A stretch of DNA of 64,000 nucleotides, taken from Clostridia bacterium. GTDB lineage: Bacteria; Bacillota; Clostridia; Christensenellales; CAG-314. The DNA lies in contig JAQVMT010000004.1 in NCBI GenBank assembly GCA_028703495.1, positions 42,479 to 106,478 on the forward strand. Reading direction: 5' to 3'. The position numbers and the translations under genes were made by a program. The notes below the pieces were generated by a model that saw only the letters and a program-made list of their open reading frames with translations, was not told the origin of the DNA and did no database searches. Shown here one piece after another: positions 1 to 64,000 of the stretch (positions are counted from its first letter, which is position 1; the number at the start of each line of letters is the position of its first letter).

Positions 1-192
1 TACTTAAACAAGAATAAATAGAATGGACACGAACAAGAGGTCTAATTCACATTAAAGATATGTGAAACCATTAGTATGATAATTACATTGTGGTCGGTGC
101 GTGTATATGCAAAGAAGTGCGTATTCAGCAAGCGGTATACCCCGACGGACTTGCGGATTTAAAGGAATATAGCAAAAGGAGTAGTGAATATA

Positions 193-750
193 ATGCAGGA
201 AATAAGAGGCACAACCATATGTGCGGTAAAAAGAGATAAAATGATTGCGATTGCCGGTGACGGGCAGGTTACGCAGGGACAGAGCGTGGTATTAAAGGGT
301 AACGCTAGGAAGGTCAGGAGAATTTACAACGACGAGGTTATCGTAGGCTTTGCCGGAACGGTATCCGACGCGTTTACGCTTACCGAAAAATTCGAGCAAA
401 TGCTTCAGAAGTATTCGGGAAACTTGATGAGGAGCGCGGTGGAGCTTGCGCAGCTTTGGCGTTCGGACAAAATGGTAAGACAGTTGGAAGCGACAATGCT
501 TGTTGCCAGCAGTAAGACCATACTTTTGGTTGACGGCACGGGAAATATTGTGGAGCCGGAGTGCGGCACGATAGCTATCGGCAGCGGCGGCAACTATGCA
601 TTTGCGGCGGCAAGGGCTTTGTTGAACGAAACTGACCTTTCGGCAGACGTTATTGCACGAAAGGCATTGGAGATCGCGTCGGACATCTGTATTTATACCA
701 ATAAAAACATCATTGTGGAATCCATTATGGATGAGGGGGATAATTTATGA
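193..750 (+). CDS. hslV: ATP-dependent protease subunit HslV (CodW-like, with a short N-terminal propeptide before the TTI catalytic threonines)
   Basis: Translation [15 protein letters not shown]...GDGQVT...GSGG matches the HslV/ClpQ Ntn-hydrolase fold. The 6-aa extension before TT resembles B. subtilis CodW. Stop overlaps the hslU start. AGGAG lies 12 nt upstream of ATG 193. A GTG at 184 is an alternative start. Confidence 0.9.
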
Positions 751-2042
751 GTATGACGCCCAGGCAAATCGTTGCCGAGTTGGACAGATATATCGTGGGA
801 CAGGACTTTGCCAAAAGAGCGGTTGCCATCGCTTTAAGAAACAGATACAGGCGAAGCAGACTTACCGAAGCCGAGCGCGAGGAAATCACGCCCAAGAACA
901 TAATTATGAAAGGACCTACGGGAGTAGGTAAAACCGAAATTGCAAGACGGCTTGCAAAGCTTGTCAAGGCACCGTTTATTAAGGTCGAGGCGACAAAGTA
1001 TACCGAGGTCGGCTACGTCGGCAGAGATGTGGAATCGATGGTAAGGGATTTGGTCGAGGTTAGCATTAGACTTGTCAAGGAAGAAAGCATAAAAAACGTA
1101 AAGGACAAGGCATATATGAGGGCGGTTGTTATTGTGGTTGAGGCTCTTTGGAAGAACAAGGAGATTTTGCCACCCAACATTGAAAAGAACGTGCTTACCG
1201 ACGAGGTGCAAAATCACCGTTTGGATCACCTTACGGTGGAGATTGAGGTTATCGAAACACCCAAGCCTATGGAAATCGCTCCGGGAATGGGTTCTATCAG
1301 CATAGGCAATATTTTAGGAGATATGGCACCCAAAAGGAAGCGCGTCAAGCGTATGACCGTCAAGCAAGCTTTGGAGTTTTTGGAAAGACAGGAAGCCGAC
1401 AAGCTTATCGATCAGGACAGCGTTAACACCGAAGCACTTATGAGAGCCGAAAACGAGGGCATAATCTTTATCGACGAGATCGACAAAATCGCAGGCAAAG
1501 GCAACACCAACGGTCCCGATGTGTCGCGTGAGGGCGTTCAAAGGGACATTCTGCCTATCGTCGAGGGCTGTACGGTTAACACAAAATACGGCAATATCAA
1601 GACCGATTATATACTTTTCATCGCAAGCGGTGCCTTTCATGTTTCGCAGGTGAATGAGCTTATTCCCGAGCTTCAGGGACGTTTTCCCGTTGTGGTGGAG
1701 CTAAACAGCCTCACAAAGGAAGACTTCGTGAAAATCTTGACCGAGCCGGAAAACGCAGTAACCTCGCAATATAGAAAGCTTTTAAAGGTGGACAACATCG
1801 ATTTGGAGTTTACACCCGACGGAATCGACGAAATTGCGACTGTGGCATACGACCTCAACAGCACATCCGAGGACATCGGCGCAAGACGTCTGCACAGCAT
1901 AATGGAGCATATTATCGAGCAGGTCAGCTTCGATATCAACGAAACCGGTGATGCAACGACGGTTGTTATCGACAAGGAATTCGTCATCAACAACCTCAGC
2001 AAGGAAACAAAAACGTACAACATCAAAAAGTACATTTTATAG
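747..2042 (+). CDS. hslU: ATP-dependent protease ATPase subunit HslU
   Basis: AAA+ motifs: Walker [16 protein letters not shown], Walker [11 protein letters not shown], and the intermediate I-domain. Translationally coupled to hslV. Confidence 0.95.
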
Positions 2043-2290
2043 TAGCAGATCTGTTTACGTGCTTGCGTATTCTGCGTTGAATGTTAAGAGCATTTATCGG
2101 TAGGGGCGAACCCATATGTTTTCGCTCGCAAAGCTGTCAGCGGAGCTGTTTACGTGTTCGCACTCGACCTGTGAGGTATGGTATGCGTAATAATCGGTAG
2201 GGGCGATTTACGTGCTTGCTCGTTCTGCATTGAATGTTAAGAGCATTTATTGGTAGGGGCGAACCCATGTGTTCGCCCGTCTGCCAAAAA
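2043..2290. repeat. Intergenic direct repeats (about 60-nt unit, two copies about 153 bp apart), each ending in the GGGCGAACCCATGTGTTCGCCC palindrome
   Basis: tttacgtgcttgc..ttctgc.ttgaatgttaagagcatttat.ggtaggggcgaaccca occurs at about 2055-2117 and about 2208-2272. The full palindrome is at 2257-2279. A degenerate copy is at 2103-2127. Confidence 0.8.
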
Positions 2291-5159: not shown

Positions 5160-5305
5160 ATAGGTTGAAGTGCGCGTTTATGCGTATTAAGCTTAAATAA
5201 GCTGAAAGTGCGCGTTTATACTTTTGAAGCTTTAAACAAATTTAAGTGTGCGTTTATGCGTTTAAAGCTTAAACAAGTTGATAAATGCGTTTATGCGCGG
5301 TATAT
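5160..5305. repeat. Four degenerate tandem repeats of about 38 nt (aagtgcgcgtttatgcgt..aagctta) immediately after the dxr stop
   Basis: Read directly from sequence. The units loosely resemble the dxr 3-prime end (gcgtttaccc...gcttgaatag). Confidence 0.7.
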
Positions 5306-6761: not shown

Positions 6762-6946
6762 ACCGACAGCGGAGCTGTTTTAGTGCTGACGCGAATGGTG
6801 ACCGCCGTTCAACGTATAACCAAAGAATTATGTCGAGCAAACGACAGCGGAGCTATTTTCGGGCAGGCGCGAATGGTGACCTCCGTTCAACGTATAACCA
6901 AAGAATTATGTCGAGAAAACGACAGCGGAGCTGTTCTAGTGCTTCT
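6762..6946. repeat. Tandem repeat with a 78-nt unit (two full copies at 6791-6868 and 6869-6946, plus a partial leading copy)
   Basis: gcgaatggtgacc.ccgttcaacgtataaccaaagaattatgtcgag.aaacgacagcggagct is repeated. The terminal copy runs into gtgcttctcaatgtttataggtttattcgc, which resembles the rseP 3-prime end gtgcttttcaccctagtaataggcatcgacc. Confidence 0.85.
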
Positions 6947-7007: not shown

Positions 7008-8051
7008 ATGGAACAAATACCTCAACGACAACCTACGAGGAGCGTCAAGGTCAAAAATACTGTTATCGGCGGTGGAAGCCGAATAAAAATTCAGTCAATG
7101 ACGACTGCACGCGTGACCGACGATGACATATGCGGTGAGCTTGCCGCGCTAAAAGCCGAGGGTTGCGACATTGTCCGCGTTGCGGTAAACGATGTTGCCG
7201 ATGCTTTGGCGATAAAGAGCCGTGACTTTTTGGGAATGCCCGTGGTTGCCGATATTCATTTCGATTATAAGCTAGCTTTGCTTGCCATTGAAAACGGTGC
7301 GGATAAGGTGCGCGTAAACCCTTCCAACCTCGGCGCAAGGGAAAATTTCGTCAAGGTAATACACTGCGCGCGCGCTCACCATGTGCCGATACGAATAGGA
7401 GCCAACTGCGGAAGCGTGCACGATGCTGTAAACGTAGGGCAAAGTGTGTCGGACTCTCTCAAGGAATACGTCGGAGTGTGCGAAAACGAGGGCTTCTACG
7501 ACATTGTCCTTTCGGTCAAAAGCAGTTCGGTTCTTCAAACGATCGAGCTTAACCGCGAGGTAAGCCGCATTTTCGATTATCCCCTGCATTTGGGGGTTAC
7601 CGAAGCGGGAACGCTAAGCGGCGGATCGATTAAAAACGCCATAGGCATCGGTGCGTTGCTTGCCGACGGCATCGGCGATACGATAAGGGTATCGCTTTCG
7701 GCGGCTCCGTATGAGGAGGTCGCTTGCGCAAAGCGGATACTCCGCGCCCTCGATCTATACGGTGGTGTAAAGATAGTAAGCTGTCCCACCTGCGGGCGCA
7801 AAAAGGCAGACGTCATTGCGCTTGCATCGGAGCTGGAACGTGCGACTTCATCGATAAACGCCGACATTACCATCGCGGTTATGGGCTGCGAGGTCAACGG
7901 ACCGGGCGAAGCCAAGCAGGCAGACTTGGGAGTTGCCGGTGCGGTAGGAGGCGGAGCCGTCTTGTTCGAAAAAGGAAAGCTTATCAAAAAGCTCACGAAA
8001 GAGGAAATAATACCCGAGCTACTCAAGTATATCGACAGCTACTCTAAGTAA
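7008..8051 (+). CDS. ispG: 4-hydroxy-3-methylbut-2-enyl diphosphate synthase (flavodoxin)
   Basis: GcpE TIM-barrel signature IQSMTT...VRVAVN...VADIHFDY...VNPSNLG. The C-terminal 4Fe-4S motif CPTCGR is present. Confidence 0.93.
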   Translation: MEQIPQRQPTRSVKVKNTVIGGGSRIKIQSMTTARVTDDDICGELAALKAEGCDIVRVAVNDVADALAIKSRDFLGMPVVADIHFDYKLALLAIENGADKVRVNPSNLGARENFVKVIHCARAHHVPIRIGANCGSVHDAVNVGQSVSDSLKEYVGVCENEGFYDIVLSVKSSSVLQTIELNREVSRIFDYPLHLGVTEAGTLSGGSIKNAIGIGALLADGIGDTIRVSLSAAPYEEVACAKRILRALDLYGGVKIVSCPTCGRKKADVIALASELERATSSINADITIAVMGCEVNGPGEAKQADLGVAGAVGGGAVLFEKGKLIKKLTKEEIIPELLKYIDSYSK

Positions 8052-8092
8052 GCTTCGATTCGCGCTCAAGATCTTGAAAAACTATTTAACAA

Positions 8093-8160
8093 GCACACGA
8101 AAGAGGAAATTATACCCGAGCTACTAAAGTATATCGACAGCTACTCGAAGAAAAGATAAA
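8093..8160. repeat. Post-stop echo copy of the last about 64 nt of ispG (7988-8051), including a new stop
   Basis: aagcacacgaaagaggaaattatacccgagctactaaagtatatcgacagctactcgaag matches aagctcacgaaagaggaaataatacccgagctactcaagtatatcgacagctactctaag at about 93% identity. Confidence 0.9.
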
Positions 8161-9828: not shown

Positions 9829-10077
9829 CCGAGCAGCAAAGCTGCTTTTTATGGCTACGCCCCTTACCCGACAGGCAGCAAGGCTGCTTTTTATGGCTGT
9901 CGCGAACAATGGCTTTCGTTTAGCGGATATCGCATAAATAATCGTGTTGGCGACAGGCAGCAAGGCTGCTTTTATGGCTACGCTCCTTACCCGACAGGCA
10001 GCGAAGTTGCTTAATATTGCTGATGCGAATAACGGGTTGCGTTTAGCGGATATCGCATAAATAATCGTATTGGCGAC
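9829..10077. repeat. Tandem repeat, two copies of about 125 nt, each containing the sub-repeat gacaggcagcaaggctgctttttatggct and a short GCAGC-aag-GCTGC hairpin
   Basis: Read directly from sequence. ...cgtttagcggatatcgcataaataatcg.gttggcgac recurs at about 9918-9951 and about 10038-10077. Confidence 0.85.
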
Positions 10078-18855: not shown

Positions 18856-19794
18856 ATGGATATAAGGATTTTTAACCAAAATGATGTCGAGCGGGGTCAG
18901 GTCGTCATTCTCGGATTTTTCGACTGTCTGCACAAGGGACATCTAAAGCTTATCGGCGAGGCGAAGGAAATTGCCGCAAGGGCGCAAACGGGTTGTGCTT
19001 TGATGACGTTTAAAAACAACCCTTTTGCGGTGCTTAGAAAAAATGACAAGCCTATATATACCTTTGCCGAAAGGTGCGACAAGCTTGTCGAGCTCGGCAT
19101 TGAAAGCGTGATTGCAATCGACTTCGATCGGGCGTTTATGAGCTTAAATAAGAGCGAATTCGAGATGCTTCTTGAAAAATGGTCGCCTGAAGCTATTGTA
19201 TGCGGATATGATTTTTCTTATGGCTGCGACAGGGGAAGCGTTGAGGATTTGGCGGCTTTTTGCAGGCGCAAAGGCATTCTTTTGCGCGTTGTCGGGGAAG
19301 TGGCGCAAGACGGCGAGCGCGTAAGCAGCAGTCGTATAAGACGTTGCCTTGCAGATGGCGATATGACACAGAGCTATCGACTTTTGGGCGAGTTTTACCG
19401 AATAAAGGGAGAGGTTTGCGGCGGAAGAAGAGTTGGGCGCAAGCTCGGATTTCCCACGGTTAATCTGGTCGGCAGTGATAAGCAGTTACCCAAAGCAGGC
19501 GTATACGGCGGACTTGTGGAAATTGACGGTACTGTTTATGCGGTGGCGGTGAACATCGGCGCAAAGCCCACCTTCGGCGATTTAAGCGAGAGCGTCGAGG
19601 GATATATATTGGGCTATTCGGGTGAGCTGTACGGGCAGTCGGTCACGCTCGGCTTGGCGGAACGCATACGCGACGTCGTTAAATTCGACGATTTTGAGCT
19701 TCTCAAAGCGCAGCTTGCACGCGACACCGCTTACATAGCAGCGCAGTCGGCAAGGTGGCGCGCAATGTCCGATGTTAACCAAAGCCGAACTTAA
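18856..19794 (+). CDS. ribF: Bifunctional riboflavin kinase / FMN adenylyltransferase
   Basis: GFFDCLHKGH is the nucleotidyltransferase motif. GGRRVGRKLGFPTVNL is the riboflavin kinase motif. Confidence 0.92.
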   Translation: MDIRIFNQNDVERGQVVILGFFDCLHKGHLKLIGEAKEIAARAQTGCALMTFKNNPFAVLRKNDKPIYTFAERCDKLVELGIESVIAIDFDRAFMSLNKSEFEMLLEKWSPEAIVCGYDFSYGCDRGSVEDLAAFCRRKGILLRVVGEVAQDGERVSSSRIRRCLADGDMTQSYRLLGEFYRIKGEVCGGRRVGRKLGFPTVNLVGSDKQLPKAGVYGGLVEIDGTVYAVAVNIGAKPTFGDLSESVEGYILGYSGELYGQSVTLGLAERIRDVVKFDDFELLKAQLARDTAYIAAQSARWRAMSDVNQSRT

Positions 19795-19918
19795 ATAATG
19801 ATATAATGCGGTGGCAAGCGGTGCGCGGAATTTGCAACGACTAAGCCCCGAATCAACTAAATAATGATATAATGCGGTATGCGGTGCGTTGCAGACCAAA
19901 AATGGCAGAAAGAGGAAA

Positions 19919-24158: not shown

Positions 24159-24307
24159 ATAGGTTCTCCGTTGCAAGGCGCAAATGCCTTTGCGTTAATT
24201 ATCTTCCTTCGGCGAGTATCAAAAGAGCCGAATTGTAGAGTTATTGCTTTTCGTAAGCGCGTGCTAGCTATGCTTCCTCGTATTCGGCGAGTATCAAAAG
24301 AGCCGAA

Positions 24308-25168
24308 TCAACGTGGAAGAGGGGTGTATTTTTTGAAAATGTTTTCCGTTATACTTCTTACCGAGCGGTGAAAGACGTTATTCAACAGGCAGGTAAACTT
24401 TGAAAGGCGCATATCGTTGTACGCACCTGCGATGGAATTGAGGGTGGAATACATCATAAACTCCAGCTCCTCTCTGTTGTTGCTTACGAACTCGCCAGCC
24501 GTTGTGAAGCCTCCCAAGCAGGATATCAGCGGATTATATTTCTTACCGTCTGCGTCCTTTTGCAAATCGTCGAGAGCATCGATAAGATACACCCACTTGC
24601 CTATATTGTAGCACAAAACACCCGCAAGAGGATTGTATTTGTCGCCGAGTATAAAGTGAGCCAGTCTGTCCGACATTCGCGCGAAGGGATCGCAAACCTT
24701 GTCAATGGAGCTTTCTCTATGCTTTTCCATATCCAAAAGCTCGTTATAAATACCGTCGATTTGCGAATAGAAGCTTGTGCAAAGGTTTTTTGCGCGCTTG
24801 AAGCTGCCCTTGAGCGCACTCAAAGCCAATCTTTTTTTGATTCCGCCGTCATCGATGACGTCGTCAAGCAGATTAAAGTACATTAAAACGATGTTGCACG
24901 CGCTAAGCCTTTCGGAAACGGTATCGGGTGAAAGCATATCCATTCTCTTGACGGACAGCAAACAGCGGCTTTTGATGACCTCGGGTGAAAAATCGAGAAT
25001 TGCGTGGAACAGCACGTTGAAAAGGTTTATATCGTTGTTTACGCACAGCCTTATAGGGTGGCGGAAGCTGTTTTTGGTTGACATACATAGCTGGCACATA
25101 AAGGCTTGATAAAGTCCCCTTTGTCCCTCGCTCAACGATTCCTTTTCGATTTTCAAATATCCGTACAT
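24308..25168 (-). CDS. Hypothetical protein, DUF5685-like
   Basis: The N-terminus MYGYLKIEK..L.E.....Y.AFMCQLC resembles the MFGYV...YCGLC start of DUF5685 proteins. That family assignment is from memory, with no database check. Co-directional with the J-domain gene across a 149-bp gap. Confidence 0.5.
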   Translation of the reverse strand: MYGYLKIEKESLSEGQRGLYQAFMCQLCMSTKNSFRHPIRLCVNNDINLFNVLFHAILDFSPEVIKSRCLLSVKRMDMLSPDTVSERLSACNIVLMYFNLLDDVIDDGGIKKRLALSALKGSFKRAKNLCTSFYSQIDGIYNELLDMEKHRESSIDKVCDPFARMSDRLAHFILGDKYNPLAGVLCYNIGKWVYLIDALDDLQKDADGKKYNPLISCLGGFTTAGEFVSNNREELEFMMYSTLNSIAGAYNDMRLSKFTCLLNNVFHRSVRSITENIFKKYTPLPR

Positions 25169-29655: not shown

Positions 29656-29671
29656 TTCGTGTGCAAAACTG

Positions 29672-29985
29672 CATCACAGTGAAGCTTTATGTGCTTTCTC
29701 TTGTTGAACGCGATTGTATTTATTCTCATCTTTTGTAAGGGCGAACCTGTGTGTTCGACAGAATAGCTCAAGTCGGACAAGCAACACAGTGAAGCTTTAT
29801 GTGCTTTCTCTTGTTGAACGCGATTGTATTTATTCTCATCTTTTGTAAGGGCGAACCTGTGTGTTCGACAGAATAGCTCAAGTTGGACAAGCAACACAGT
29901 GAAGCTTTATGTGCTTTCTCTTGTTGAACGCGATTGTATTTATTCTCATCTTTTGTAAGGGCGAACCCATGTGTTCGCCCTTATA
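29672..29985. repeat. Tandem repeat, 120-nt unit, about 2.6 copies, each ending in the GGGCGAAC..GTTCG palindromic element
   Basis: acagtgaagctttatgtgctttctcttgttgaacgcgattgtatttattctcatcttttgtaagggcgaacc.gtgtgttcg occurs three times. The final copy has the perfect palindrome at 29958-29980. Confidence 0.9.
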
Positions 29986-30925: not shown

Positions 30926-31678
30926 ATTTTTTTCAATTATTGGAGCAAAACGTCCTCGATTTTCCTTAACAGGTAAGAGACGGGCGAATATATGCTAAAT
31001 ACTGTGGCAATTCGTGTCGCATATTTGTTTTTTAACAGGCTCTCGGTTTGCTTTCTTTTGATTACCAATACACGCTTCTTGCGGATTATTGACTAGTACT
31101 CGGGTACATCTTGACCACTCGATAAACGGTTGTCGTTTTTTATAATATTGGCTCTCGGTTTGTTATACTTCTTGACCGCCTAATAAGCTCGTGTTGCGCT
31201 ATTGCTCTTTGAGTAAGCAACTTACGGCATAAACGCAATCAAAAAGCATTGCTCTTTATAATAATGCAAAAGTGCCGTTTGTGTCAATCGTTTTGGCAGT
31301 CGAATGAAAAATAACCAACCTAAGTTGTTATTATTGCAGATTTACAAACTAAGTTTTATAGTGGAAGCTACTTTGATAGTAAAATATAAGTAATTTTGCC
31401 ATAGTGTTTTAGGGTAGATATGTCGTGGAAGTTGCTTTGACGGTTAAATTATTGTATTTATTGCATAGAATTACAGTGGAGGTATTTTGTGAAAGTTGTT
31501 CTGATGGTAAACGAATGAGAAATTATTGCATAAATTACAGAGACTTTGGCAGCATACCGTCCGATATTATGGTATTTAATATAAGCGGTTTAAATGCTTG
31601 ACATTTCGGTGTGCTGTGTTATAATTGAGTTTGATGCGGCGGAGAACAAAATTACCGTATCTAAAGGAGTAGCTTTTT

Positions 31679-32323: not shown

Positions 32324-33175
32324 ATGGAAGGGAAGTTTTTAGTGGCGAGAGCGGGTTTGCATTTTTGGGAGGAGCCGCCCATTTCCGGTACGAAAGGAAG
32401 CGGAACGGTGTTTTTCGGGGGCTGTTTGCTTAAATGTGTGTATTGCCAAAACTACAAAATCAGCCGTAAGCCCTACGGAATGGCTTTGACGGGTGAGCAA
32501 TTGACGGATATTATCTGCTATTTGCAGGATTGCGGTGCGCATAACATCAATTTAGTGACGCCCTCGCATTACATTAAGCTTATGCCGAAGCTGCTGGAGA
32601 ATGCGAAGAAGCGGATTTCCATTCCGATTCTGTACAATTGCGGAGGCTATGAGAACCTCGAGGGGTTGAAGCGGCTGGACGGGCTTGTTGACATTTATTT
32701 GCCCGATTTCAAGTATGGAAACAACGCTTTGGGGCGGAAGTATTCGGGAATATCCGACTATTTCGACGTGGCTTGCGCGGCATTGGCGGAGATGCGCCGC
32801 CAGCAACCCGACTGCGTTTTCGACTCCGACGGAATTATGCAAAGGGGTATGCTTGTTCGCCATTTGGTATTGCCGGGAATGCTTGTCAACAGCAAAAAGG
32901 TACTAAAGTGCATTGCAGACTTGGATAAATCGCTTTACGTAAGCCTGATGTGCCAGTATTTTCCGCCGCGAAAGGAGCTTCCGTCGCCTCTCAACCGTCG
33001 CTTGACACAAGCCGAATACGACAATATTTGTTATTTCTTCGATTCGTGCGGTCTGTCGAACGGCTTCACCCAGGAGCTTTCGAGCGCGACCGAGGATTAC
33101 GTCCCCGACTTTGATTTAGACTTGCTCAAAGAGGTGTTGGACAAATCGACATCATTTTCCGATAAGAAAGAGTAA
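32324..33175 (+). CDS. Radical SAM protein, PflX-like (COG1313) putative activating enzyme
   Basis: HFWEEPPISGTKGSGTVFFGGCLLKCVYCQNY contains the CX3CX2C cluster in the PflX-family context. Confidence 0.75.
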   Translation: MEGKFLVARAGLHFWEEPPISGTKGSGTVFFGGCLLKCVYCQNYKISRKPYGMALTGEQLTDIICYLQDCGAHNINLVTPSHYIKLMPKLLENAKKRISIPILYNCGGYENLEGLKRLDGLVDIYLPDFKYGNNALGRKYSGISDYFDVACAALAEMRRQQPDCVFDSDGIMQRGMLVRHLVLPGMLVNSKKVLKCIADLDKSLYVSLMCQYFPPRKELPSPLNRRLTQAEYDNICYFFDSCGLSNGFTQELSSATEDYVPDFDLDLLKEVLDKSTSFSDKKE

Positions 33176-33179
33176 ACTC

Positions 33180-33400
33180 AATTAGTTATACCTGTCGCAG
33201 TTGTCTTGAACGGAGAAAAGTCCATTTCCGATAAGAAAGTGTAGGCATAATAAGGCATACATCTCGCAGTTGTTACAGACGAGCAAAGGACCTTTTCCGA
33301 CAAGAAAGGGTAAGCATAATTAAGTTTACCCTACCGAGGTTCTCTTGCGCGGGCAAAGGACCTTTTCCGACAAGAAAAAGCAGGTAAAATAAGTATCGGG
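33180..33400. repeat. Three tandem echo copies, about 60 nt each, of the radical-SAM gene 3-prime end
   Basis: The gene ends tcattttccgataagaaagagtaaactcaattagtta. Downstream copies read aaaagtccatttccgataagaaagtgtaggcataat, aaaggaccttttccgacaagaaagggtaagcataat and aaaggaccttttccgacaagaaaaagcaggtaaaat. Confidence 0.9.
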
Positions 33401-35607: not shown

Positions 35608-35631
35608 ATGTACTTGTTTTGCTGTTGCAAA

Positions 35632-35825
35632 GCCGTACGCGTGGAGCAATGGTATAAACGCAAGCTCGAACGCTTGACTAAAGACGGTTTGCGAAGGCGG
35701 ACGCGTGGAGCAATGGTATAAACGCAAGCTTGAACGTTTGACTAAAGATGGTTTGCGAAGCCGTACGTGTGTAGCAGTGGTATAAACGCAAGCTTGAACG
35801 CTTGACAAAAGACGGTTTGTAAGGG
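35632..35825. repeat. Tandem repeat, 64-nt unit x3
   Basis: ccgtacgcgtggagcaatggtataaacgcaagctcgaacgcttgactaaagacggtttgcgaag at 35632, 35696 and 35760. It loosely echoes the upstream gene end tatcaagaagcgcaagaaatag. Confidence 0.9.
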
Positions 35826-35884: not shown

Positions 35885-36010
35885 GCGAATGAGTTCGGTG
35901 GTAATTGAGCTCATTTTTTATTCTTATTCGATGGGTTCGGTGGTAATCGGACTTTTTTTAATTCTAATCCGATAAGTGCGGTGGTAATTGAACTCATTTT
36001 GTTTTCTGTA
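35885..36010. repeat. Tandem repeat, about 43-nt unit x3. The first copy forms a terminator-like hairpin with a T-run.
   Basis: aATGAGTTCggtggtaattGAGCTCATtttttatt, followed by two degenerate copies. Confidence 0.8.
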
Positions 36011-43442: not shown

Positions 43443-44074
43443 TCACTTATGTATTCCTTCAAACATTACGGTAGGCATATTCCCGGTTGTTGGAGTGGAT
43501 TAGCCCTCTCAAACGTTGAAAAACATTCAAACCTCCGTTCGTGGAAAAAAACTAAGCCTTTGAACGGAACAGCGTACAAAAACCTTTGAGGGTTGAAGCA
43601 AACTTAGACTCCGAACCTCACGCCACATAATGTTGTTTATCCTTAAGGTAAAGTATCGGTAAAAAAACGTGTTCTTCATCGGCAATGATTTCAAGTGTTA
43701 TTAATATTACAGCATAATTCCATCTGCACTCTCAATCTCGATTTTCGACTGTATAATCAAATTGTGTGATTTTCTCTTTCTCTTCAAGCTTATTTTCGCT
43801 TACATATTATGACATTTCGTGCGGCATAATCGGAGAGAAAGCAAAGTACAATAGAAAGAGAGACAATAAACAGAAAACGCAATTGAGGCATCAGCAAAAA
43901 AGCTGCTGTATTTTGTATGCTTACTATCAAAGTTCAAGAGAGATAAAGGCAATATGCCTTTTGCTCCTTGCAATAAAGCAAACACAAGGTATTCATATAA
44001 AAGAACTGTAAGCGCGAACTCGTGTATTCGCGCGAAAGGTAAGACATTTCCTTACGATTGCATATAAACGGTAG

Positions 44075-44097
44075 GGGCGAACCCATGTGTTCGCCCG
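44075..44097. repeat. Palindromic element GGGCGAAC-CCATGTG-GTTCGCCC in the spoIIIAA upstream region
   Basis: Perfect 8-bp inverted arms. A degenerate relative GCGCGAAC-TCGTGTA-TTCGCGC is at 44018-44040. Followed by AAAGGG-ctttt-CCCTTT at 44103-44119. Confidence 0.85.
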
Positions 44098-47729: not shown

Positions 47730-48068
47730 ATATAGGGAATGGTGTTGCTCGGCAAGCAGTTATAATAATTAGACACCGGAACCACAAGCAATCAAAAGTG
47801 CAAAGGCACGTAAAGGCAAGCAATCAAAAGTGCAAAGCAACGTAGTTTTAAGTAAACTATATTGAGCGGCACAGTTAGTTCAAGTAAACTCAATCGGGCG
47901 GAGTTGTAACGGCGATCAAACATAATCGGGTGGCACCGTAATTTTAGTAAACTATATTGAGCGGCACAGAAACTATAGGCAAGCTTATATCGGGCGGAGT
48001 AGTAAAGGCAGGTTCGAACAGGCAATATTTTAAAGAGGCGCGGTGTTTGGACATGGCGAAGGAGAAAA

Positions 48069-51962: not shown

Positions 51963-52476
51963 TTGCCAATTACCGTGAAACGCGATAGGTTTGATATAAA
52001 GCCCGAACAAACACAAAGAAAAAGCGGTGCCCATATGTTTAGAGCAACAAAGATTGACTTTTGTTTTTAAAGTGGTAGTGGGAAGGCCGAAAAGAATCGC
52101 CTTTCCCACTATTATTTCCAATTACAAAATTGCCTTTCCCCTTACTCTTTAATTTGATATACGAATCGGGTTTCCGCTGTTATTTTTGATTACTGAATCG
52201 GGCATCCAATTATTCGGCATTTTGGGACATCGAATTCAATAATATTATTAGTTTTTCCGAAAACACTTTTGTCTTTGTGTAATACTCAAGTTTTCGGCAT
52301 TTTGGGACATCGAAAATAAATATTTTTCAAGATTTTTTGTATAAGCACAGTGTGCATAAAGAATATAGCAAAACCGCACAGTTACCTTTTTGAGCAATTG
52401 TGCGGTTAATATTCAATTCCGATGTATCTGATACTAATCCACTCGCCAAAATGCTGAAATTAGGCGTTACTTAGTA

Positions 52477-56208: not shown

Positions 56209-57906
56209 ATGAGTAGCGTTGGTCTTTTAATCGAAAACGGTGTTCTGGTCAAGTACGAGGGCGGCGGTGAATGCGTTGTAAGCGAGGAAATTGTCGAGAT
56301 AGGCGAAGGCGCATTCTCCGATTCGGAGATTACCTCCATCGTTTTGCCGGAGGGAGTGGTAAAAATAGGCAGAAACGCCTTTAAAAACTGCAAGATGTTG
56401 ACGGAGGTCGGAATACCCTCGACCTTAGAGAAGCTAAGCTCCGGCTCGTTTTATGGTTGCGAGAGCTTGGAGTCAATCGACTTATCCACTGTGAAGTATA
56501 TTCCCGATAGGTCGTTTATGAACTGTGAAAGCCTTAAGGATATTCTTTTCTGTGCGGAGCTTGACAGCATCGGAAACAACGCCTTTGCCAACTGTACGAG
56601 CTTGGTTAATGTTGATTTGCCCCTTTGTATAAAGAGTATAGGCGATTCGGCATTTTATGCCTGCGTTAATCTGCTGGATATAACCATCTGTGCCGAAACC
56701 GAGTATATCGGCTCCAACGTCTTTTTAAGGGACGACGATTTGGTCGTGTCGGTGATAGGACTTGAGCCCAACGAGGATTGGGACGAGGAGTGGGACTTCG
56801 GCGGTTGCACGATTGTCTATATCGACGATAATTTGAGCCGCGAAAACCTTTGTGGCAACTGTGACGCGTGCGGCAAATCCTGCGAGGACTCTGCCGAACC
56901 CGTCGTTCAAACCGAGGTCGCCGAGGATATCGAGTGTGACCAACCCGAGAGCCAAGCTCATCCGGAATGCGAAACAGCATGCGAAACGGACTGTGCGGAA
57001 CCCGAGAGCCAAGCTCAACCCGAATGCGAAAGCACAGGCGATGCCGATACAAACGAATGCGAAGGAGAATGCACAAAGGAATCGGATACTGCCGATGCCG
57101 AAAGCTGCGCGGCAGTTGACGAAGGTGAAGCCGTTAACGATGGCTTAACATGTGTGGGACAAGATATAAACGATACTTGTGCCGATACGGAGCATGACGG
57201 TGATAAAAAGGGTGAAGAATCTCCAGCCGAAGAATCAGACGAAGCAAAGGTTTTTCAAACCGATGCCGATGAAGAAAAAGTGATTACCGAAAAAGAAACG
57301 GGAACCGGAACAGATGAAGAAAGAGTGATTACCGAAAAAGAAACAGAAACCGAAACAGAGAGCGATATATATAAGGAAACCGATGCCGTTGAGTACGGCG
57401 CTCCTACTAAGGCGCAGGATGTTGCAATTGAATTTGAGGACGAGGACGAGGTCGGCGAACCGAGATTCGAGATTGTCGAGGGAGTGTTGACCGCATACTA
57501 CGGAGAGAGCAAGAGAGTAGTAATTCCCGAAGAGGTTACCGAAATCGACGACTATGTATTTTTCGGGCACAAGGAAATTCAAGAAGTAGGATTCCCGACA
57601 GGACTAGCGAGGATCGGGAAGCAGGCGTTTTACGAGTGCGAGCTTATCAAATCGGTCGTATTGCCCGATTCGTTGATGTCAATAGGAGCGATGGCGTTTT
57701 CTGCGTGTAAGTCGCTTACCTCGGTGTATATTCCCAAAGACGTGGTGAGCATCGATTTTAACGCATTTTCCTTTTGCGACAAGCTTACGATATATTGCGG
57801 TGTGGAAAAGGAGCCGTTCGGCTGGCATCCCGACTGGAATCTGTTTATGCGGCCGGTGGTTTGGGGCTACGTTCCCGACAAGGACGGCGCAACGAACGCA
57901 GACTAA
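56209..57906 (+). CDS. BspA-type leucine-rich-repeat protein, no signal peptide, with a central Cys-rich acidic tandem-repeat linker
   Basis: LRR_5-like units IVEIGEGAF..., VVKIGRNAFKNC, SIGNNAFANCTSL and SIGAMAFSACKSL occur at both ends. The linker carries CDQPESQAHPECET / CAEPESQAQPECES and EEKVITEKETGTGT / EERVITEKETETET repeats. Strong RBS aaaggaggtcagatATG. Confidence 0.75.
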   Translation: MSSVGLLIENGVLVKYEGGGECVVSEEIVEIGEGAFSDSEITSIVLPEGVVKIGRNAFKNCKMLTEVGIPSTLEKLSSGSFYGCESLESIDLSTVKYIPDRSFMNCESLKDILFCAELDSIGNNAFANCTSLVNVDLPLCIKSIGDSAFYACVNLLDITICAETEYIGSNVFLRDDDLVVSVIGLEPNEDWDEEWDFGGCTIVYIDDNLSRENLCGNCDACGKSCEDSAEPVVQTEVAEDIECDQPESQAHPECETACETDCAEPESQAQPECESTGDADTNECEGECTKESDTADAESCAAVDEGEAVNDGLTCVGQDINDTCADTEHDGDKKGEESPAEESDEAKVFQTDADEEKVITEKETGTGTDEERVITEKETETETESDIYKETDAVEYGAPTKAQDVAIEFEDEDEVGEPRFEIVEGVLTAYYGESKRVVIPEEVTEIDDYVFFGHKEIQEVGFPTGLARIGKQAFYECELIKSVVLPDSLMSIGAMAFSACKSLTSVYIPKDVVSIDFNAFSFCDKLTIYCGVEKEPFGWHPDWNLFMRPVVWGYVPDKDGATNAD

Positions 57907-58325
57907 AGACTTTGATTTAAGCGTGTTTGCGCTAAATCGGTCTTATATCCGTTTATTTAAGTATCCACCGAAGCGAAAGACGTTTCGGGCGGCGAACGCG
58001 GTATCTACGTGATATAAACTAGAACTGTTACACTGTATTCGCGAATAAAAAAGGTATCCACCGAAGCGAAAGACGTTTTGGATAGAAGCATATATATGTT
58101 TATATACTAAGCTGCATTAATTTATGTAGAATTAGTTGCGGAATTAGTATAATAGTGCGATTTGCGTAATGCAAGCCGAGTGCAAGCCCTAAATACATAT
58201 ACAGATGGCGAGAGACGGAGTTACTCTTTCCGTTTATCGCAAAATGTGTCGGTATCACGGGCACGCGCGATTGTATGCGCAACGCGAGTCGTTCGGCGGT
58301 CAGCCGTCGGACAAAGGAGGAAATT

Positions 58326-60600: not shown

Positions 60601-60819
60601 ACATCGGAACAAAGAAAAAGCCGATGAACGCTGAAGCTTAGTTGCATAGGCACAAATAAAAAATCGATGCGTGCTAAGCCTATTTGCATCGGTACGAAGA
60701 AAAGAATAAACACCCGTAAACGCGGTTGCTCCTCGACAATTCGGGGCGCAAATCGTGCTTTGCGGGTTTTTTCACGCCTGACAAGTATTTATGCTTGTTT
60801 TCTTGGCTTTTCGCTCGAC

Positions 60820-60910: not shown

Positions 60911-62383
60911 TTAAAGCAAATTCACAAGTTTTTCTATATCACCTGCGCCCAAAACGATAACAGTGTCGCCGTTGCGTGCCGTTTGCTTTATCTGCTTTAT
61001 GCATTCATCAAAGCTTTCCGCGAGGAAATACCGCGTACAATCAGTGTCGGCATAGGGCGAAGTCGAAAGCTTTTGAAGTTCGGCAAGCAAGTCCGATGAC
61101 ATACCACCTAAAACAGGCTTTTCTCTGGCGGCATATACGGGAAGCAGGATTACTGAATCCGCTAAATTCAAGCTCGCCGCAAATTCGGTTAGGAATGCTT
61201 TTGTGCGTGTATATGTGTGCGGCTGAAAAACCGCAAGCAACTTGCCCGAGGTCATTGCCCTTGCGGTCGAGATTGCCGCCGAAAGCTCGGTCGGGTGGTG
61301 CGCATAATCCAAAACTACGTTCAATCCGTTTTTCTCGATACGGCTAAATCGGCGGTAAACGCTTTCAAAGCTTTCCAATGTCCGTGCCGATGCGGCAAGG
61401 TCGGCACCTATACAGCATGCAGCGCAAAGTGCCGCCGCTGCGTTGTATGCATTGTGCCGCCCGAATACGCGCATATTCACCCGTTCGCACTGCCCGTCAG
61501 CCTCGACGTCGAAAACCAAAGGAGCAACCGAGCGCACTCGTACTGTCATTCGGAATGCATCATCTTTTACTGATTTGTCTTTATTGTCCTCGTTCGTCGG
61601 AGAAAGGTTGTTTTCTTTGTCATTGGGACCTACTTCGTTCCCCAAAACGGCGAAGCTTGCTGTTTTGCATGCGGCATTTGCCTTTACCAATTCACAAAGC
61701 TCGGGAGCTTGGTTGCAGTACACCGCAACTCCTTCGCCATCGATATTCGAAATGAATCGCCCGTAGGCATCAAGCATGCTTTGTCGTGTCTTATAGAAAT
61801 CGACATGGTCGTATTCAACGTTAAGAATAACGCCGATTTTCGGAAAAAGGCGCAAAAACGCGCTCTTGTACTCGCACGCTTCTGCGACCGCAACGTTTGT
61901 ACCGCCAACGTAATTGCGGCCGTTAAGCAGTCCTCCCACAAAACAGGCGGGCGAATACCCCAAGCTCTTGAGAATGTGATACACCATTGCTGTCGTGGTG
62001 GTTTTTCCGTGTGTTCCGGAGATCGCGATCGGACAGTCGAAAGCATTGAAGTATCGTCCGAGAAGCTCCTCTCGGCTCAAAATCGGAATACCCGACCTTT
62101 TGGCTTCGGCAAGCTCGCAGTTGCATGCGGGAATAGCGGCGGAGACTACGACGAGATCGGCTCCGCAAACGTGCTTTCTCCTGTGTCCGCAGTTTAGTTT
62201 AACGCCACTTTGTTCGAGCAAATGCCTTATCTCACGTACGTCCGAGGGAGTGCTCGAAGGGTTACGACTGCATGATCGGTCGGAGCCGCTGACGTCGTTG
62301 CCCAACTCTGCCGAGTGCAGAGCAAGCGCACTCATTCCAACACCCAAAATTCCGATAAAGTGTATTCTCATAATTATATACAT
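60911..62383 (-). CDS. murC: UDP-N-acetylmuramate--L-alanine ligase with two low-complexity insertions
   Basis: Mur ligase motifs IHFIGILGVGMSALA, GTHGKTTTT and DYAHHP. The inserts are SGSDRSCSRNPSSTPSDVREIRHLLEQSG and GPNDKENNLSPTNEDNKDKSVKDD. Start at 62383 or 62368. Confidence 0.88.
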   Translation of the reverse strand: MYIIMRIHFIGILGVGMSALALHSAELGNDVSGSDRSCSRNPSSTPSDVREIRHLLEQSGVKLNCGHRRKHVCGADLVVVSAAIPACNCELAEAKRSGIPILSREELLGRYFNAFDCPIAISGTHGKTTTTAMVYHILKSLGYSPACFVGGLLNGRNYVGGTNVAVAEACEYKSAFLRLFPKIGVILNVEYDHVDFYKTRQSMLDAYGRFISNIDGEGVAVYCNQAPELCELVKANAACKTASFAVLGNEVGPNDKENNLSPTNEDNKDKSVKDDAFRMTVRVRSVAPLVFDVEADGQCERVNMRVFGRHNAYNAAAALCAACCIGADLAASARTLESFESVYRRFSRIEKNGLNVVLDYAHHPTELSAAISTARAMTSGKLLAVFQPHTYTRTKAFLTEFAASLNLADSVILLPVYAAREKPVLGGMSSDLLAELQKLSTSPYADTDCTRYFLAESFDECIKQIKQTARNGDTVIVLGAGDIEKLVNLL

Positions 62384-63069
62384 GACCTCCGTCACAAAAA
62401 CTTCTTGGGAAAAAGTCGCGCGTCTGCTGGGCAACAGGTAGCCCTTTGACCGAAGGGAGCGTATATAGATATACACGACCACTGCTAAGAGCTACACGTA
62501 GCCCGCATCACACGATGAATTATTTCAAGTGTCCCTCCCGAGCATTTGAACAACGATGCTCTTTTTGCTTCAGCAAGATTTATATTCGGTTTTGCCCAAT
62601 TATTATATGCAAAAACGGATTTATGCTCTACTTTGGCTGTTTTGTGTAAACGATATTTCAATTCTTTTTGTACCGAAACGCTTTTTGTCAATTTGCGAAG
62701 TCGACGTTTCAAAAGACCGAGCAAGTGAAGGGGCGATAATGCATGCGCGCAAGAATTGCTCTCATATCGAAAAAATATTGCAGTAATGCGAAAAAAATCA
62801 CTATTTGGCAAAAAAATTTAATGCACTAAAATGTAGGAACAAAATGCGGGAGCTTGCTCACAGGCATTTGAGACGACCATTTCAAGCTCGGAAGCACGGT
62901 TTTAGTATAAAACCGTGGAATAAACGCAGTTTATTATGGTTTCAAGCGTTAGCGCAGAAAACATATTCTGATAGGTTATAATATTACTACCTTAAATTAG
63001 TTGCTTTATTTGACGAAATTTGATAAAATAACAAGGTATAACCGATAGGTTATAAGCGGGGGCTGGTAA

Positions 63070-63327
63070 ATGATCACGGAAGTTAAGGTAAAAATTGTAC
63101 ACGACCCGACAGGAAAGCTCAAGGCGGTGGCTTCGGCTGTGTTTTGCGGCTGTTTGGTTGTGCACGACATCAAAATCATCTAAGGGAAGCGGGGATTGTT
63201 CGTTTCGATGCCGTCGAGGACAAACAAGGACGGCGAGCATATGGATATCGTTCACCCGATAGATGCGGCGTTCCGAGCCAAACTCCAAAGCGTTATTATC
63301 AGCGAGTACAAAAAACTGTCGGAGTGA
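63070..63327 (+). pseudogene. spoVG: spoVG interrupted by a single in-frame TAA (63181-63183)
   Basis: MITEVKVKIVHDPTGKLKAVASAVF..LVVHDIKII-stop-GKRGLFVSMPSRTNKDGEHMDIVHPID...ISEYKKLSE matches the SpoVG pattern (...[22 protein letters not shown]...DIAHPIN) across the stop, in one frame. Confidence 0.75.
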
Positions 63328-64000
63328 AGCGGAGTTTGTTTTTCCCCTTGACCTTAGATTAATGCTAATTTGCCTCTTAGAATGTATATTTCATTGAGGT
63401 CTTTTTGTTGTAGGGTTTCAAAAATGCTTGCACATATCGCTACAATAAAGCTACGCTCGTTTGTTTCGATACATAAAAATACATGCAAATTACGTTGCTT
63501 GAGACTGTGCTTTTTGGTCTGTTTTTCCCCAAAATGCTTTGATCGTTGCTTGAGTCAGTCCGTTAAAGACAACTTTTTCATTGCGTGGCATGAATACGGG
63601 TTGCAGGAAAATATGTTATAAGCTCGTTTTGATGTGTTTTTTTGTGCGATTCTGTTTGATCGAATAATTATTACTCTTTAAAAATTAAGCTTTGCGAATT
63701 AAGCTTCGTGAGCGGTTTTTTAATTTTGTCTTTGCCGATTGAGCGGCTTTCCGTTAGATAAAGGCGAACTAAAACATAATAGATAATGAGCGAAACAAAA
63801 CCGAAGAAGCCGTTAATTGACAAAGTAAGTTTCACCGATTTGCCACAATATCTTCTACCACGCTCCATACTGTGGAGCTTCCTTTTGCAAATAACAGATC
63901 GAAAAAAACTTCTCTTTGTTATAGGGAAGTTTTTTAAGTGCTTGACTTAGGGATATTAATGTGGTATTATGGTTACGCGTGTGGAGCAGACGGATATAAG

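What the first reader, a model, noticed from the sequence alone, without database searches (positions are those of the whole stretch)
1..64000. Genes are routinely followed by an echo copy of their own 3-prime end, and most intergenic regions are degenerate tandem repeats
At least eight genes on both strands are followed within 0-100 nt by a degenerate direct copy (about 75-93% identity) of their last 30-70 nt, usually including the stop. These are ispG (7988-8051 vs 8093-8160), the TIM-barrel gene (20759-20796 vs 20839-20876), efp (23073-23110 vs 23136-23172), rlmI (minus strand, 30044-30080 vs 30003-30040), the radical SAM gene (three echoes, 33180-33400), murC (minus strand, 60911-60960 vs 60830-60890), and probably rseP and dxr. 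Nearly every other spacer contains tandem repeats with units of 38-172 nt: 2043-2290, 5160-5305, 6762-6946, 9829-10077, 24208-24309, 28560-28800, 29672-29985, 31350-31560, 35632-35825, 35885-36010, 47780-48010, 50009-50360, 52213-52314 and 57961-58078. In-frame tandem duplications also occur inside genes, for example nusA 12318-12461 and the BspA linker. The simplest reading is an unusually high rate of short tandem duplications of about 40-180 nt. Purifying selection would retain only those that fall in spacers or straddle a stop codon, which reconstitutes an intact gene plus a downstream fragment. A functional role cannot be excluded. The echoes could act as 3-prime UTR structure or as back-up stops.
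Basis: seen in the sequence. Interest (0 to 1): 0.7.

Follow-up and report, generated by a model that had tools for sequence, protein, structure and literature searches.

The report
Spacers crowded with local DNA duplications
In this uncultured spore-forming Clostridia genome the DNA between genes holds short local duplications about 18 times more often than in other bacteria, including copies of six genes' last 30-70 bases just downstream; this is most likely copying errors that survive where they do no harm, not a new device.

Summary
A self-comparison finds 20 local direct-repeat loci in 64 kb. That is 3.1 per 10 kb, against 0.17 per 10 kb in 1.3 Mb of control loci. Complex internal repeats occur in 39% of spacers of at least 100 nt, against 2.1% in controls. 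Five of 48 genes pass the 3'-echo threshold, against 3 of 1087 control genes; a sixth, efp, is significant in a separate test. None has a 5' echo. A second assembler reproduces 54.6 kb of the window without a mismatch, so this is not an assembly artefact.

Not confirmed: the rlmI, dxr and rseP echoes and the 28560-28800 repeat.

Best explanation: slippage or template-switch duplication, filtered by selection. The two youngest arrays show 7-10 nt microhomology arms. Only 2 of 23 loci lie inside genes, and both are in frame. Four loci are tandem reiterations of a GTAG-tagged REP hairpin with junctions inside the hairpin, a behaviour already described.

Eleven loci are X-Y-X: two copies separated by an unrelated 19-86 nt filler. 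In 4 of 6 echoes the similarity stops within 2 nt of the stop codon (P about 2e-4). This is unexplained.

The "truncated PolC" is a widespread family of about 510 aa and is not the cause. Moderate interest.

The parts
7986..8153 (+). ispG 3' echo. X1 7986-8051 is the last 66 nt of the CDS including TAA. Y 8052-8087 is an unrelated filler. X2 8088-8153 is the echo, 91% identical, with the stop changed to AAA.
   Evidence: identical in Logan contig L001
20759..20874 (+). Echo of the 3' end of the TIM-barrel (AP_endonuc_2) gene. X about 36 nt, 94% identical, offset 80. The similarity ends 1 nt after the stop. The echo stop is TAG.
   Evidence: identical in L212
23073..23169 (+). efp 3' echo, 34 nt, about 82% identical, offset 63. 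It runs 17 nt past the stop.
   Evidence: L212
23471..23571 (-). Echo of the 3' end of the DnaJ-like gene 23544-24176(-). 27-28 nt, 93% identical, offset 73. The similarity ends at the stop; the echo stop is TAG. A canonical terminator hairpin follows the echo.
33155..33393 (+). Four 69-nt units that start in the last 20 nt of the radical SAM CDS. A core, TTTCCGAyAAGAAA, is invariant in 13 of 14 columns in all four units. The rest of the unit is about 60% conserved.
   Evidence: L088
60833..60964 (-). murC 3' echo. X 56 nt, 87.5% identical, offset 76. The similarity ends 2 nt past the stop; the echo stop is AAA. Five of seven differences are synonymous third-position changes.
   Evidence: L091
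2054..2279 (+). Cluster of a GTAG-tagged REP hairpin with flanking DNA. It holds one degenerate copy, one copy truncated after GGGGCGA and one intact copy. Offset 153, 91% identical.
5164..5297 (+). 38-nt x3.6 degenerate array that starts 5 nt after the dxr stop.
6764..6943 (+). 78-nt x2.3 array, 91% identical, that starts 14 nt after the rseP stop. Each unit holds CAGCGGAGCTG followed by a T-run.
   Evidence: Logan contigs break here
9833..10077 (+). 124-nt x2.0 array that starts 5 nt after the stop of the exonuclease gene. It holds four GCAGCAAAGCTGC + T5 hairpins.
   Evidence: L001
12317..12469 (+). In-frame 72-nt x2.1 duplication in the C-terminal tail of nusA, 95% identical, with a 9-nt microhomology arm GCCCGACAA.
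19792..19888 (+). X-Y-X repeat: 34-nt copies, 88% identical, offset 66. Each copy holds an extended -10-like TGATATAAT. The first copy overlaps the ribF stop.
24208..24308 (-). X-Y-X repeat: two identical 26-nt hairpin modules (TTCGGC..GCCGAA) 75 nt apart. The first starts on the last base of the DUF5685 gene's stop codon.
29671..29985 (+). 110-nt x2.8 array, 97-98% identical, with the pattern X(87) Y(23) X Y X. The junctions lie inside the REP hairpin and only the last hairpin is intact.
31361..31540 (+). Old 64-nt repeat, 70% identical, in the divergent spacer between rlmI and the DUF805 gene.
35625..35819 (+). 64-nt x3.0 array, 89-91% identical, that starts 18 nt after the stop of the gene at 35251-35607.
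35889..36007 (+). 41-nt x2.9 array. Each unit is a terminator-like hairpin followed by a T-run.
44071..44096 (+). Single intact copy of the GTAG-REP hairpin GTAGGGGCGAACCCATGTGTTCGCCC.
47786..48009 (+). A 17-nt x3.4 repeat followed by a 77-nt X-Y-X (81% identical, offset 96), inside the spoIIIA operon between AE and AF.
   Evidence: L089
50009..50362 (+). 172-nt x2.0 array, 97% identical. Each unit holds an intact REP hairpin. The microhomology arm is 7-10 nt (ACGGCAA..).
52207..52327 (+). X-Y-X repeat: 43-nt copies, 84% identical, offset 80, in a convergent spacer.
57257..57359 (+). In-frame 45-nt x2.3 repeat in the BspA-type LRR protein gene.
57961..58081 (+). X-Y-X repeat: two 28-nt hairpin modules (CCGAAGCG..CGTTTCGG), 96% identical, 93 nt apart.
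60602..60703 (+). 43-nt x2.4 array that starts 2 nt after the stop of the Band_7 gene.

Best explanation
These are real mutational by-products and not a device. In this lineage, short local duplications of 26-172 nt arise by replication slippage or template switching, and by further expansion once two copies exist. Selection then sorts them. Events inside genes are removed unless they are in frame and fall in a tolerant tail or linker. Events that touch promoters or start codons are removed. Events in the DNA just after a stop codon, including those that copy the end of the gene, are harmless, so they persist and decay. Hairpins are preferred breakpoints at a minority of sites, above all one GTAG-tagged REP element.

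Shown here: the excess over other genomes, the position and frame filter, the age spread, the microhomology arms of the two youngest arrays, and the junctions inside REP hairpins.

Inferred: the mechanism of the primary event, and that the cause is rate and not retention.

Not explained by this model: the unrelated filler Y between two-copy repeats, and the stop-codon boundary of four echoes.
For: EXCESS
- 18-fold more loci per kb than controls.
- 39% against 2.1% of spacers hold a repeat.
- 3' echoes in 5 of 48 genes against 3 of 1087.

REAL SEQUENCE
- A second assembler gives 0 mismatches over 54.6 kb, and the copies have diverged from one another.

SELECTION FILTER
- 2 of 23 loci lie in CDS and both are in frame.
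- There are no 5' echoes in 47 genes.
- Arrays sit next to the upstream stop and leave 60-120 nt free before the next start.

CONTINUING PROCESS
- Identities run from 70 to 100%, and longer units are younger (rho = +0.46).

MICROHOMOLOGY ARMS
- 9 nt in nusA and 7-10 nt at 50009. This is the signature of microhomology-mediated tandem duplication, reported as universal in bioRxiv 10.64898/2026.02.28.708716.

REP LOCI
- Upstream copies are truncated within the hairpin and only the last copy is intact.
- A further case lies in the 3.1 kb upstream of the window.
- REPs reiterated in tandem with flanking DNA are described in PMC3733652.

NO SHARED SIGNATURE OF A DEDICATED ELEMENT
- Apart from the REP, the loci share no motif.
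- No known RNA family or tRNA was found.
- No RT, transposase or cas gene was found among the window proteins scanned.
Against: - Eleven two-copy loci are X-Y-X. Their Y is unrelated to either flank and has no template in the window. A single simple tandem duplication cannot make this.
- In 4 of 6 echoes the similarity stops within 2 nt of the stop codon (P about 2e-4). The one clear control echo, in L080, runs at least 55 nt past the stop.
- The radical SAM array keeps a core invariant in 13 of 14 columns in non-coding copies while the rest of the unit has decayed. That hints at constraint on the copies.
- The hairpin association is only modest overall (mean z = -1.46 against -0.84, p = 0.04).
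- There is no close relative: ispG is at most 51% identical to any other protein. Copy-number polymorphism and rate could therefore not be measured.
Confidence: 0.68

Rival explanations
1. Some or all of the repeats are functional cis-elements: multiplied terminators, promoter or operator iterons, or 3' UTR modules kept by selection. In this view the echoes are sites that happen to overlap gene ends.
For: - The core of the radical SAM array is invariant in 13 of 14 columns in all four units while the flanks have decayed.
- The 26-nt copies at 24208 are identical, yet their flanks are unrelated.
- The 35889 array is three terminator-like hairpins with T-runs, and the 9833 array holds four.
- The copies at 19792 each carry an extended -10-like TGATATAAT.
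Against: - The loci share no motif, and the radical SAM core is specific to its locus.
- Most units show no excess structure.
- There is no Rfam match.
- The echoed segments are ordinary coding ends of unrelated housekeeping genes.
- Echo stop codons are mutated in 6 of 7 copies.
- The identity spectrum looks like neutral decay.
Confidence: 0.15
2. The echoes are scars of gene-end replacement. DNA from a diverged strain recombined into the gene through one homologous and one illegitimate join. That brought a new gene end plus a few tens of bases of foreign flank (X1-Y) and left the resident gene end (X2-Z) behind.
For: - This explains why the similarity stops at the stop codon and why Y and Z are unrelated.
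- Differences between X1 and X2 lean towards third codon positions. I counted 10 of 16 by hand from the rows, including 5 synonymous changes of 7 differences in murC.
Against: - The third-position bias is not significant against a model with one constrained and one neutral copy (P about 0.1-0.2, my own estimate).
- It requires the foreign flank to end only 20-45 nt after the stop in five separate events.
- It predicts 5' scars as well, and none is seen.
- It does not explain the non-genic X-Y-X loci or the arrays.
- No second strain is visible in the assemblies.
Confidence: 0.08
3. The repeats are artefacts of metagenome assembly, for example unmerged contig ends, strain bubbles placed in tandem, or amplification chimeras.
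For: - A scaffold-gap duplication of exactly this kind exists in a relative, L084: 100 N flanked by duplicated sequence.
- Logan contigs break inside the three youngest arrays, so the copy numbers of those arrays are not independently confirmed.
Against: - The window has no N.
- The copies are 70-97% identical, not identical.
- An independent assembler reproduces 54.6 kb, including all six echoes and the degenerate arrays, with 0 mismatches.
- Artefacts would not avoid coding sequence or respect the reading frame.
Confidence: 0.03
4. A REP-associated tyrosine transposase (RAYT), or a similar nuclease that acts on hairpins, drives the duplications throughout the genome.
For: - The dispersed hairpin has the GTAG head and the GC-rich palindrome of GTAG-REPs.
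- Four of its five window loci and the one upstream locus are duplicated, with junctions in the hairpin at the 2054, 29671 and upstream loci.
- Tandem arrays of the same 26-mer occur in other organisms: L101, L152 and L162.
Against: - Only 4 of 23 window loci contain this element.
- The other units have unrelated sequences and no GTAG tag.
- No Y1 transposase turned up among the window proteins scanned.
Confidence: 0.1

Closest known systems
Microhomology-mediated tandem duplication and slipped-strand tandem repeats (bacterial minisatellites, VNTRs)
   Same: - Head-to-tail copies of tens to hundreds of bases.
- Short microhomology arms at the ends of the youngest arrays.
- Further expansion to 3-4 copies.
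- Only in-frame events are tolerated in genes.
- The copies decay with age.
   Different: - The density is about 18 times that of 80 other bacterial loci.
- Half of the loci are two copies separated by an unrelated filler and not by a second full unit.
- Echo boundaries coincide with stop codons.
- Copy-number polymorphism, the usual hallmark, could not be tested.
GTAG-tagged REP elements and their tandem clusters (BIME-like), PMC3733652
   Same: - The dispersed element GTAG-GGGCGAAC-(6 nt loop)-GTTCGCCC has the GTAG head and the GC-rich palindrome.
- It is extragenic.
- It is reiterated in tandem together with flanking DNA.
   Different: - It accounts for only 4 of 23 loci.
- All copies here are in one orientation.
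- No RAYT gene is present in the window.
MIRU (mycobacterial interspersed repetitive units)
   Same: Tandem units of 40-100 nt in spacers inside operons, abutting or overlapping the stop codon of the upstream gene. This comparison rests on my own knowledge of Supply et al. 1997.
   Different: MIRUs are one dispersed sequence family present at many loci. Here every locus has its own unit sequence.
Diversity-generating retroelement template and variable repeats
   Same: A near-copy of the 3' end of a gene lies a short way downstream of that gene.
   Different: - The mismatches are not adenine-specific: about 5 of 16 echo-side mismatch bases are A.
- No reverse transcriptase was found among the window proteins scanned.
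- The targets are housekeeping genes.
CRISPR adaptation and ectopic 'neo-CRISPR' spacer integration (repeat duplicated around an inserted spacer)
   Same: The X-Y-X architecture: a duplicated segment flanks an unrelated insert of a few tens of bases.
   Different: - X ranges from 26 to 87 nt and Y from 19 to 86 nt, so there is no ruler.
- There are no cas genes.
- No array is built from one shared repeat.

Membership tests
Slippage- or MTD-derived tandem repeats | Head-to-tail copies of a unit with similarity over the whole unit | tested here: met
   Met for 12 loci. Not met for 11 X-Y-X loci, whose Y is unrelated to either flank.
Slippage- or MTD-derived tandem repeats | Microhomology arm repeated after the last copy | tested here: inconclusive
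   9 nt at nusA and 7-10 nt at 50009. It is 2-3 nt or unreadable in the older arrays.
Slippage- or MTD-derived tandem repeats | Copy number varies between strains | not testable with these tools
   No second sample or close relative exists in the collections.
GTAG-tagged REP | GTAG tetranucleotide next to a GC-rich imperfect palindrome, in many extragenic copies | tested here: met
   Six loci in 67 kb. One variant carries a compensatory change in both arms, GGGCAAAC/GTTTGCCC. The definition is taken from PMC3733652.
GTAG-tagged REP | Associated RAYT (Y1 transposase) gene in the genome | not testable with these tools
   None was found among the window proteins scanned. The rest of the genome is not available.
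Diversity-generating retroelement | Mismatches between template and variable repeat confined to adenines of the template | tested here: not met
   Read: the mismatches involve all four bases, and about 5 of 16 are A on the echo side.
Diversity-generating retroelement | Reverse transcriptase gene next to the repeats | tested here: not met
   No RT domain was found in the window proteins scanned.
CRISPR or neo-CRISPR | Repeats of constant length and sequence with spacers of regular size, plus cas genes | tested here: not met
   X is 26-87 nt, Y is 19-86 nt, every locus has a different X, and there are no cas genes.
MIRU-like dispersed minisatellite | The same unit sequence at many loci | tested here: not met
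   K-mer and self-BLAST analyses show that only the REP hairpin is dispersed.
Integrated element that carries a replacement gene end (attL/attR) | An element with an integrase lies between the two copies of the gene end | tested here: not met
   Only 20-45 nt lie between the copies.
Scaffolding or assembly duplication | Identical copies that flank a gap or contig join and are not reproduced by other assemblers | tested here: not met
   No N, diverged copies, and 0 mismatches to six Logan contigs. Compare the true artefact in L084.

The most novel reading that the evidence does not exclude
A breakpoint hot spot sits at the first bases after stop codons. This is where translation ends and the transcript becomes naked. 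In this lineage, replication or repair there repeatedly restarts from a template a few tens of bases upstream after adding unrelated filler. That would give gene-end echoes whose similarity stops exactly at the stop codon, and arrays that begin 0-18 nt after stops. It would be a translation-boundary-linked duplication process, which as far as I know has not been described in bacteria.
Probability: 0.12. Interest if true: 0.65.

Novelty: new variant of a known kind. Interest (0 to 1): 0.4.

Why it matters
Bacterial spacers are normally short and free of repeats. This window, the only part of the genome examined, has 21% spacer DNA, and a quarter of that is recent local duplication, even inside the spoIIIA and uppS-to-nusA operons. 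If the whole genome is like this, it would be a natural case for studying how small duplications arise, persist and decay, and how non-coding DNA can grow in a prokaryote.

Practically, such sequence breaks short-read assemblies and leaves pseudo-fragments of gene ends that annotators can mistake for pseudogenes.

The stop-codon-anchored X-Y-X echoes do not fit the textbook duplication model. If they recur genome-wide, they would point to a breakpoint preference or recombination history worth experimental study.

Tried and rejected
SEARCH FOR RELATIVES
- Close relatives, to test whether echoes are conserved. A genome-contig scan with ispG gave nothing above 51% identity, and the protein search gave the same result.
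- The nearest syntenic relatives, found through the exonuclease protein (39% and 38% identity). L082-L084 have only AT-rich low-complexity minisatellites, which vanish under a low-complexity filter. L085-L087 have none.
- An apparent strain-specific 113-nt echo at the dxr stop of L084. It is a 100-N scaffold gap.
- More of the same genome. Only 3.1 kb upstream of the window could be reached.
- The REP hairpin as a probe for relatives. It is too widespread: more than 120 stretches with GC from 32 to 65%.
- The sample. Nothing was found in the literature for SRR22315503.

ORIGIN OF THE FILLER Y
- A template for Y was sought on both strands of the window.
- Y was compared with the sequence after X2 and before X1.
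- No similarity was found in any of these tests.

OTHER IDEAS
- A motif shared by spacers: only generic A/T-rich words turned up.
- Hairpins as a general cause: the association is weak.
- DGR, CRISPR-like and integrative-element readings failed their defining features (see the membership tests).
- Known RNA families and tRNAs: none.
It is in fact the repeat at 57257-57359 in the 583-aa LRR gene.

Full report
WHAT THE WINDOW IS

The gene order is hslV-hslU-uppS-cdsA-dxr-rseP-ispG-(PolC-like exonuclease)-rimP-nusA-ylxR-infB-rbfA-truB-ribF. The window also holds efp, trpS, murC and a complete spoIIIA operon. Together these mark a spore-forming member of the Bacillota. NCBI lists the ispG protein as 'MAG: Clostridia bacterium', on a contig of 123,699 nt. 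The next most similar ispG among 5.8 billion proteins is only 51% identical. The lineage therefore has no close sequenced relative. The window has no N, no tRNA and no Rfam match.

Mostly yes. Tandem Repeats Finder and a self-BLASTN recover nearly all of the listed repeats at the stated coordinates. Almost every direct repeat in the window is local, with an offset of 43-172 nt.

I tested the last 70 nt of each of 48 genes against the next 250 nt, using the other genes' downstream regions as the control. The efp echo is weaker but significant (z = 11).

The rlmI, dxr and rseP echoes and a repeat at 28560-28800 are not distinguishable from shuffled sequence.

The in-frame repeats in nusA (72 nt) and in a BspA-type LRR gene (45 nt, 57257-57359) are confirmed.

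IS IT MORE THAN CHANCE OR THE USUAL BACKGROUND?

The 80 loci fetched with ispG from other bacteria, 1.32 Mb in all, served as controls.

- The same pipeline finds 0.174 local repeat loci per 10 kb there, against 3.1 per 10 kb in the window.
- With a low-complexity filter, 13 of 33 window spacers of at least 100 nt hold an internal direct repeat of at least 40 bits, against 8 of 378 control spacers.
- 3' echoes occur in 5 of 48 window genes at the score threshold of 30, against 3 of 1087 control genes (Fisher p = 5.6e-6). 5' echoes occur in 0 of 47 window genes against 4 of 1045 controls.
- Spacers make up 20.8% of the window, and repeats fill about a quarter of that.

IS IT AN ARTEFACT?

Six contigs assembled independently (Logan) from run SRR22315503 match the window over 54,574 of 64,000 bases without one mismatch. 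They cover all six echoes and the degenerate arrays.

These contigs end inside the three youngest arrays (6764, 29671 and 50009). This is what true near-identical repeats do to a short-k assembler. It also means that the copy number of those three arrays rests on the MAG assembly only.

Both assemblies use the same reads, so an error at the level of the reads is not formally excluded. However, copies that differ by 3-30% cannot be amplification or joining errors, and artefacts would not avoid coding sequence. A true scaffolding duplication (100 N flanked by duplicated sequence) does occur in a relative, L084. It shows what such an artefact looks like.

ANATOMY

There are two classes.

1. Twelve loci are whole-unit tandem arrays of 2.0-4 copies.
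2. Eleven are two copies (X, 26-87 nt) separated by a segment Y of 19-86 nt. Y has no detectable similarity to the sequence after the second copy or before the first, and none to anything else in the window on either strand. Five of the six echoes belong to this second class.

In ispG, the TIM-barrel gene, the DnaJ-like gene and murC, unconstrained BLAST alignments end within 2 nt of the last base of the stop codon. If boundaries were spread evenly over a unit of about 80 nt, four such cases in six would have a probability of about 2e-4. The one strong echo in the controls (L080) runs at least 55 nt past its stop, as a plain duplication should.

The echo copy of the stop codon is changed in 6 of 7 units: to TAG three times, to AAA twice and to CAG once.

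The differences between a gene end and its echo lean towards third codon positions. I counted 10 of 16 by hand. This is not significantly more than expected when one copy is constrained and the other is free.

POSITION

Only 2 of 23 loci lie wholly inside coding sequence, which is 79% of the window (p = 9e-13). Both have periods divisible by three.

Arrays in spacers begin 0-18 nt after the upstream stop at eight loci: 19792, which overlaps the stop by 3 nt, and 2054, 5164, 6764, 9833, 24208, 35625 and 60602. In co-directional spacers they leave about 60-120 nt untouched before the next start. Four convergent spacers hold seven loci. One locus lies in a divergent spacer. The duplications therefore cluster at gene 3' ends and spare promoters and start codons.

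CLUES TO MECHANISM

- The two youngest simple arrays end with a short repeat of their first bases: 9 nt in nusA and 7-10 nt at 50009. This is the mark of microhomology-mediated tandem duplication. A 2026 preprint reports that this process is the dominant route to tandem repeats in bacteria, archaea and eukaryotes, and that it rises when Okazaki-flap processing is impaired.
- Identity rises with unit length (rho = +0.46). This fits faster loss of long repeats.
- The only dispersed repeat is a 26-nt hairpin, GTAG-GGGCGAAC-CyrTGT-GTTCGCCC, at five loci in the window and one more in the 3.1 kb upstream.
- That hairpin has the defining features of GTAG-tagged REP elements. One copy carries a compensatory change in both arms.
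- At four window loci and the upstream locus it is duplicated together with flanking DNA. At the 2054 and 29671 clusters the upstream copies are cut within the hairpin and only the last copy is intact. [quoted passage not shown]
- Several other units are hairpins too: 24208, 57961, 35889 and 9833. Overall the excess of structure over other spacer DNA is modest (mean z = -1.46 against -0.84, p = 0.04).

INTERPRETATION

The best-supported account is a high standing load of small local duplications made by slippage or template switching, expanded by further slippage, and filtered by selection so that only harmless ones remain.

The window cannot say whether the load reflects a higher rate or weaker removal. 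The long spacers, even inside the spoIIIA and uppS-to-nusA operons, and the strong protein divergence fit either reading.

The 516-aa OB-fold plus exonuclease protein belongs to a family of hundreds of proteins of about 510 aa in Clostridia MAGs. It sits at the same syntenic position in relatives, and one group of those relatives has no such repeats.

WHAT THE ACCOUNT DOES NOT EXPLAIN

- The origin of Y.
- The stop-codon boundary of four echoes.
- The core of the radical SAM array, TTTCCGAyAAGAAA. It is invariant in 13 of 14 columns in all four units, three of them non-coding, while the rest of the unit is about 60% conserved. The core is specific to that locus.

I considered four further readings: selected cis-elements, gene-end replacement by recombination with a diverged strain, a hairpin nuclease (RAYT) as a general driver, and a breakpoint hot spot just after stop codons. 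Each explains part of the data, and none could be tested without the whole genome or a second strain.

DGR, CRISPR-like and integrative-element readings fail their defining features (see the membership tests).

VERDICT

This is a real and statistically strong peculiarity of this genome. It is built from a known kind of mutation, with one known sub-class (tandem REP clusters) and one feature that remains unexplained (stop-anchored X-Y-X echoes). Interest is moderate. It would rise if the stop-anchored boundary holds genome-wide.

Noticed in passing
The contigs have GC contents from 32 to 65%. The 26-mer often lies next to a sister hairpin, GGGCAGACAC..GGTCTGCCCCTAC. Such wide distribution of an identical REP is striking. 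Tandem arrays of it exist elsewhere: L101 (5 copies at 51-nt spacing), L152 and L162.
   Followed up: partly
window 8278-9828 (+): A 516-aa protein with only the N-terminal, OB and exonuclease parts of PolC sits at the canonical polC position between ispG and rimP. It belongs to a large family of about 510 aa in Clostridia MAGs. Where these organisms encode the polymerase part was not determined.
   Followed up: partly
window 62483-64000: About 1.5 kb upstream of murC has no ORF above 108 aa and no Rfam match. A Logan contig ends at 62896. It may be a decayed gene or an undescribed RNA.
   Followed up: no
window 44134-49903: The spoIIIA operon (AA to AH) has unusually long internal spacers of 77-339 nt. 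One of them holds repeats (47786-48009).
   Followed up: no
window 33155-33393: Four direct copies of TTTCCGAyAAGAAA lie 69 nt apart. The first lies in the last codons of the radical SAM gene, and a 637-nt spacer follows. The arrangement looks like an iteron or operator array and could be a real regulatory site.
   Followed up: partly
L084 7395-7507: An apparent 113-nt insertion at the dxr stop in one of three MAGs that are 99.5-99.8% identical is a 100-N scaffold gap flanked by duplicated 22-nt repeats. This is a true assembly artefact in a public genome.
   Followed up: yes
L082/L083 about 1230-1270; L082 11688-11887, 13134-13298, 14589-14724, 17389-17529: The nearest syntenic relatives (32% GC) carry AT-rich minisatellites with short units in the same kinds of spacer. 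One 20-nt unit differs in copy number between strains (2 against 3 copies).
   Followed up: partly
L090 1330-1470 (1.7 kb upstream of the window start): After topA lies a variant REP with compensatory changes in both arms (GGGCAAAC/GTTTGCCC). It is followed by a 43-nt direct repeat whose second copy begins with a remnant of the hairpin's 3' arm.
   Followed up: partly
window 7986-8159: The ispG echo is in frame with ispG, and the 36-nt filler has no stop. Read-through of the TAA at 8049-8051 would add 36 codons that repeat the C-terminal 21 residues. This is probably coincidence, because the other echoes are out of frame.
   Followed up: partly
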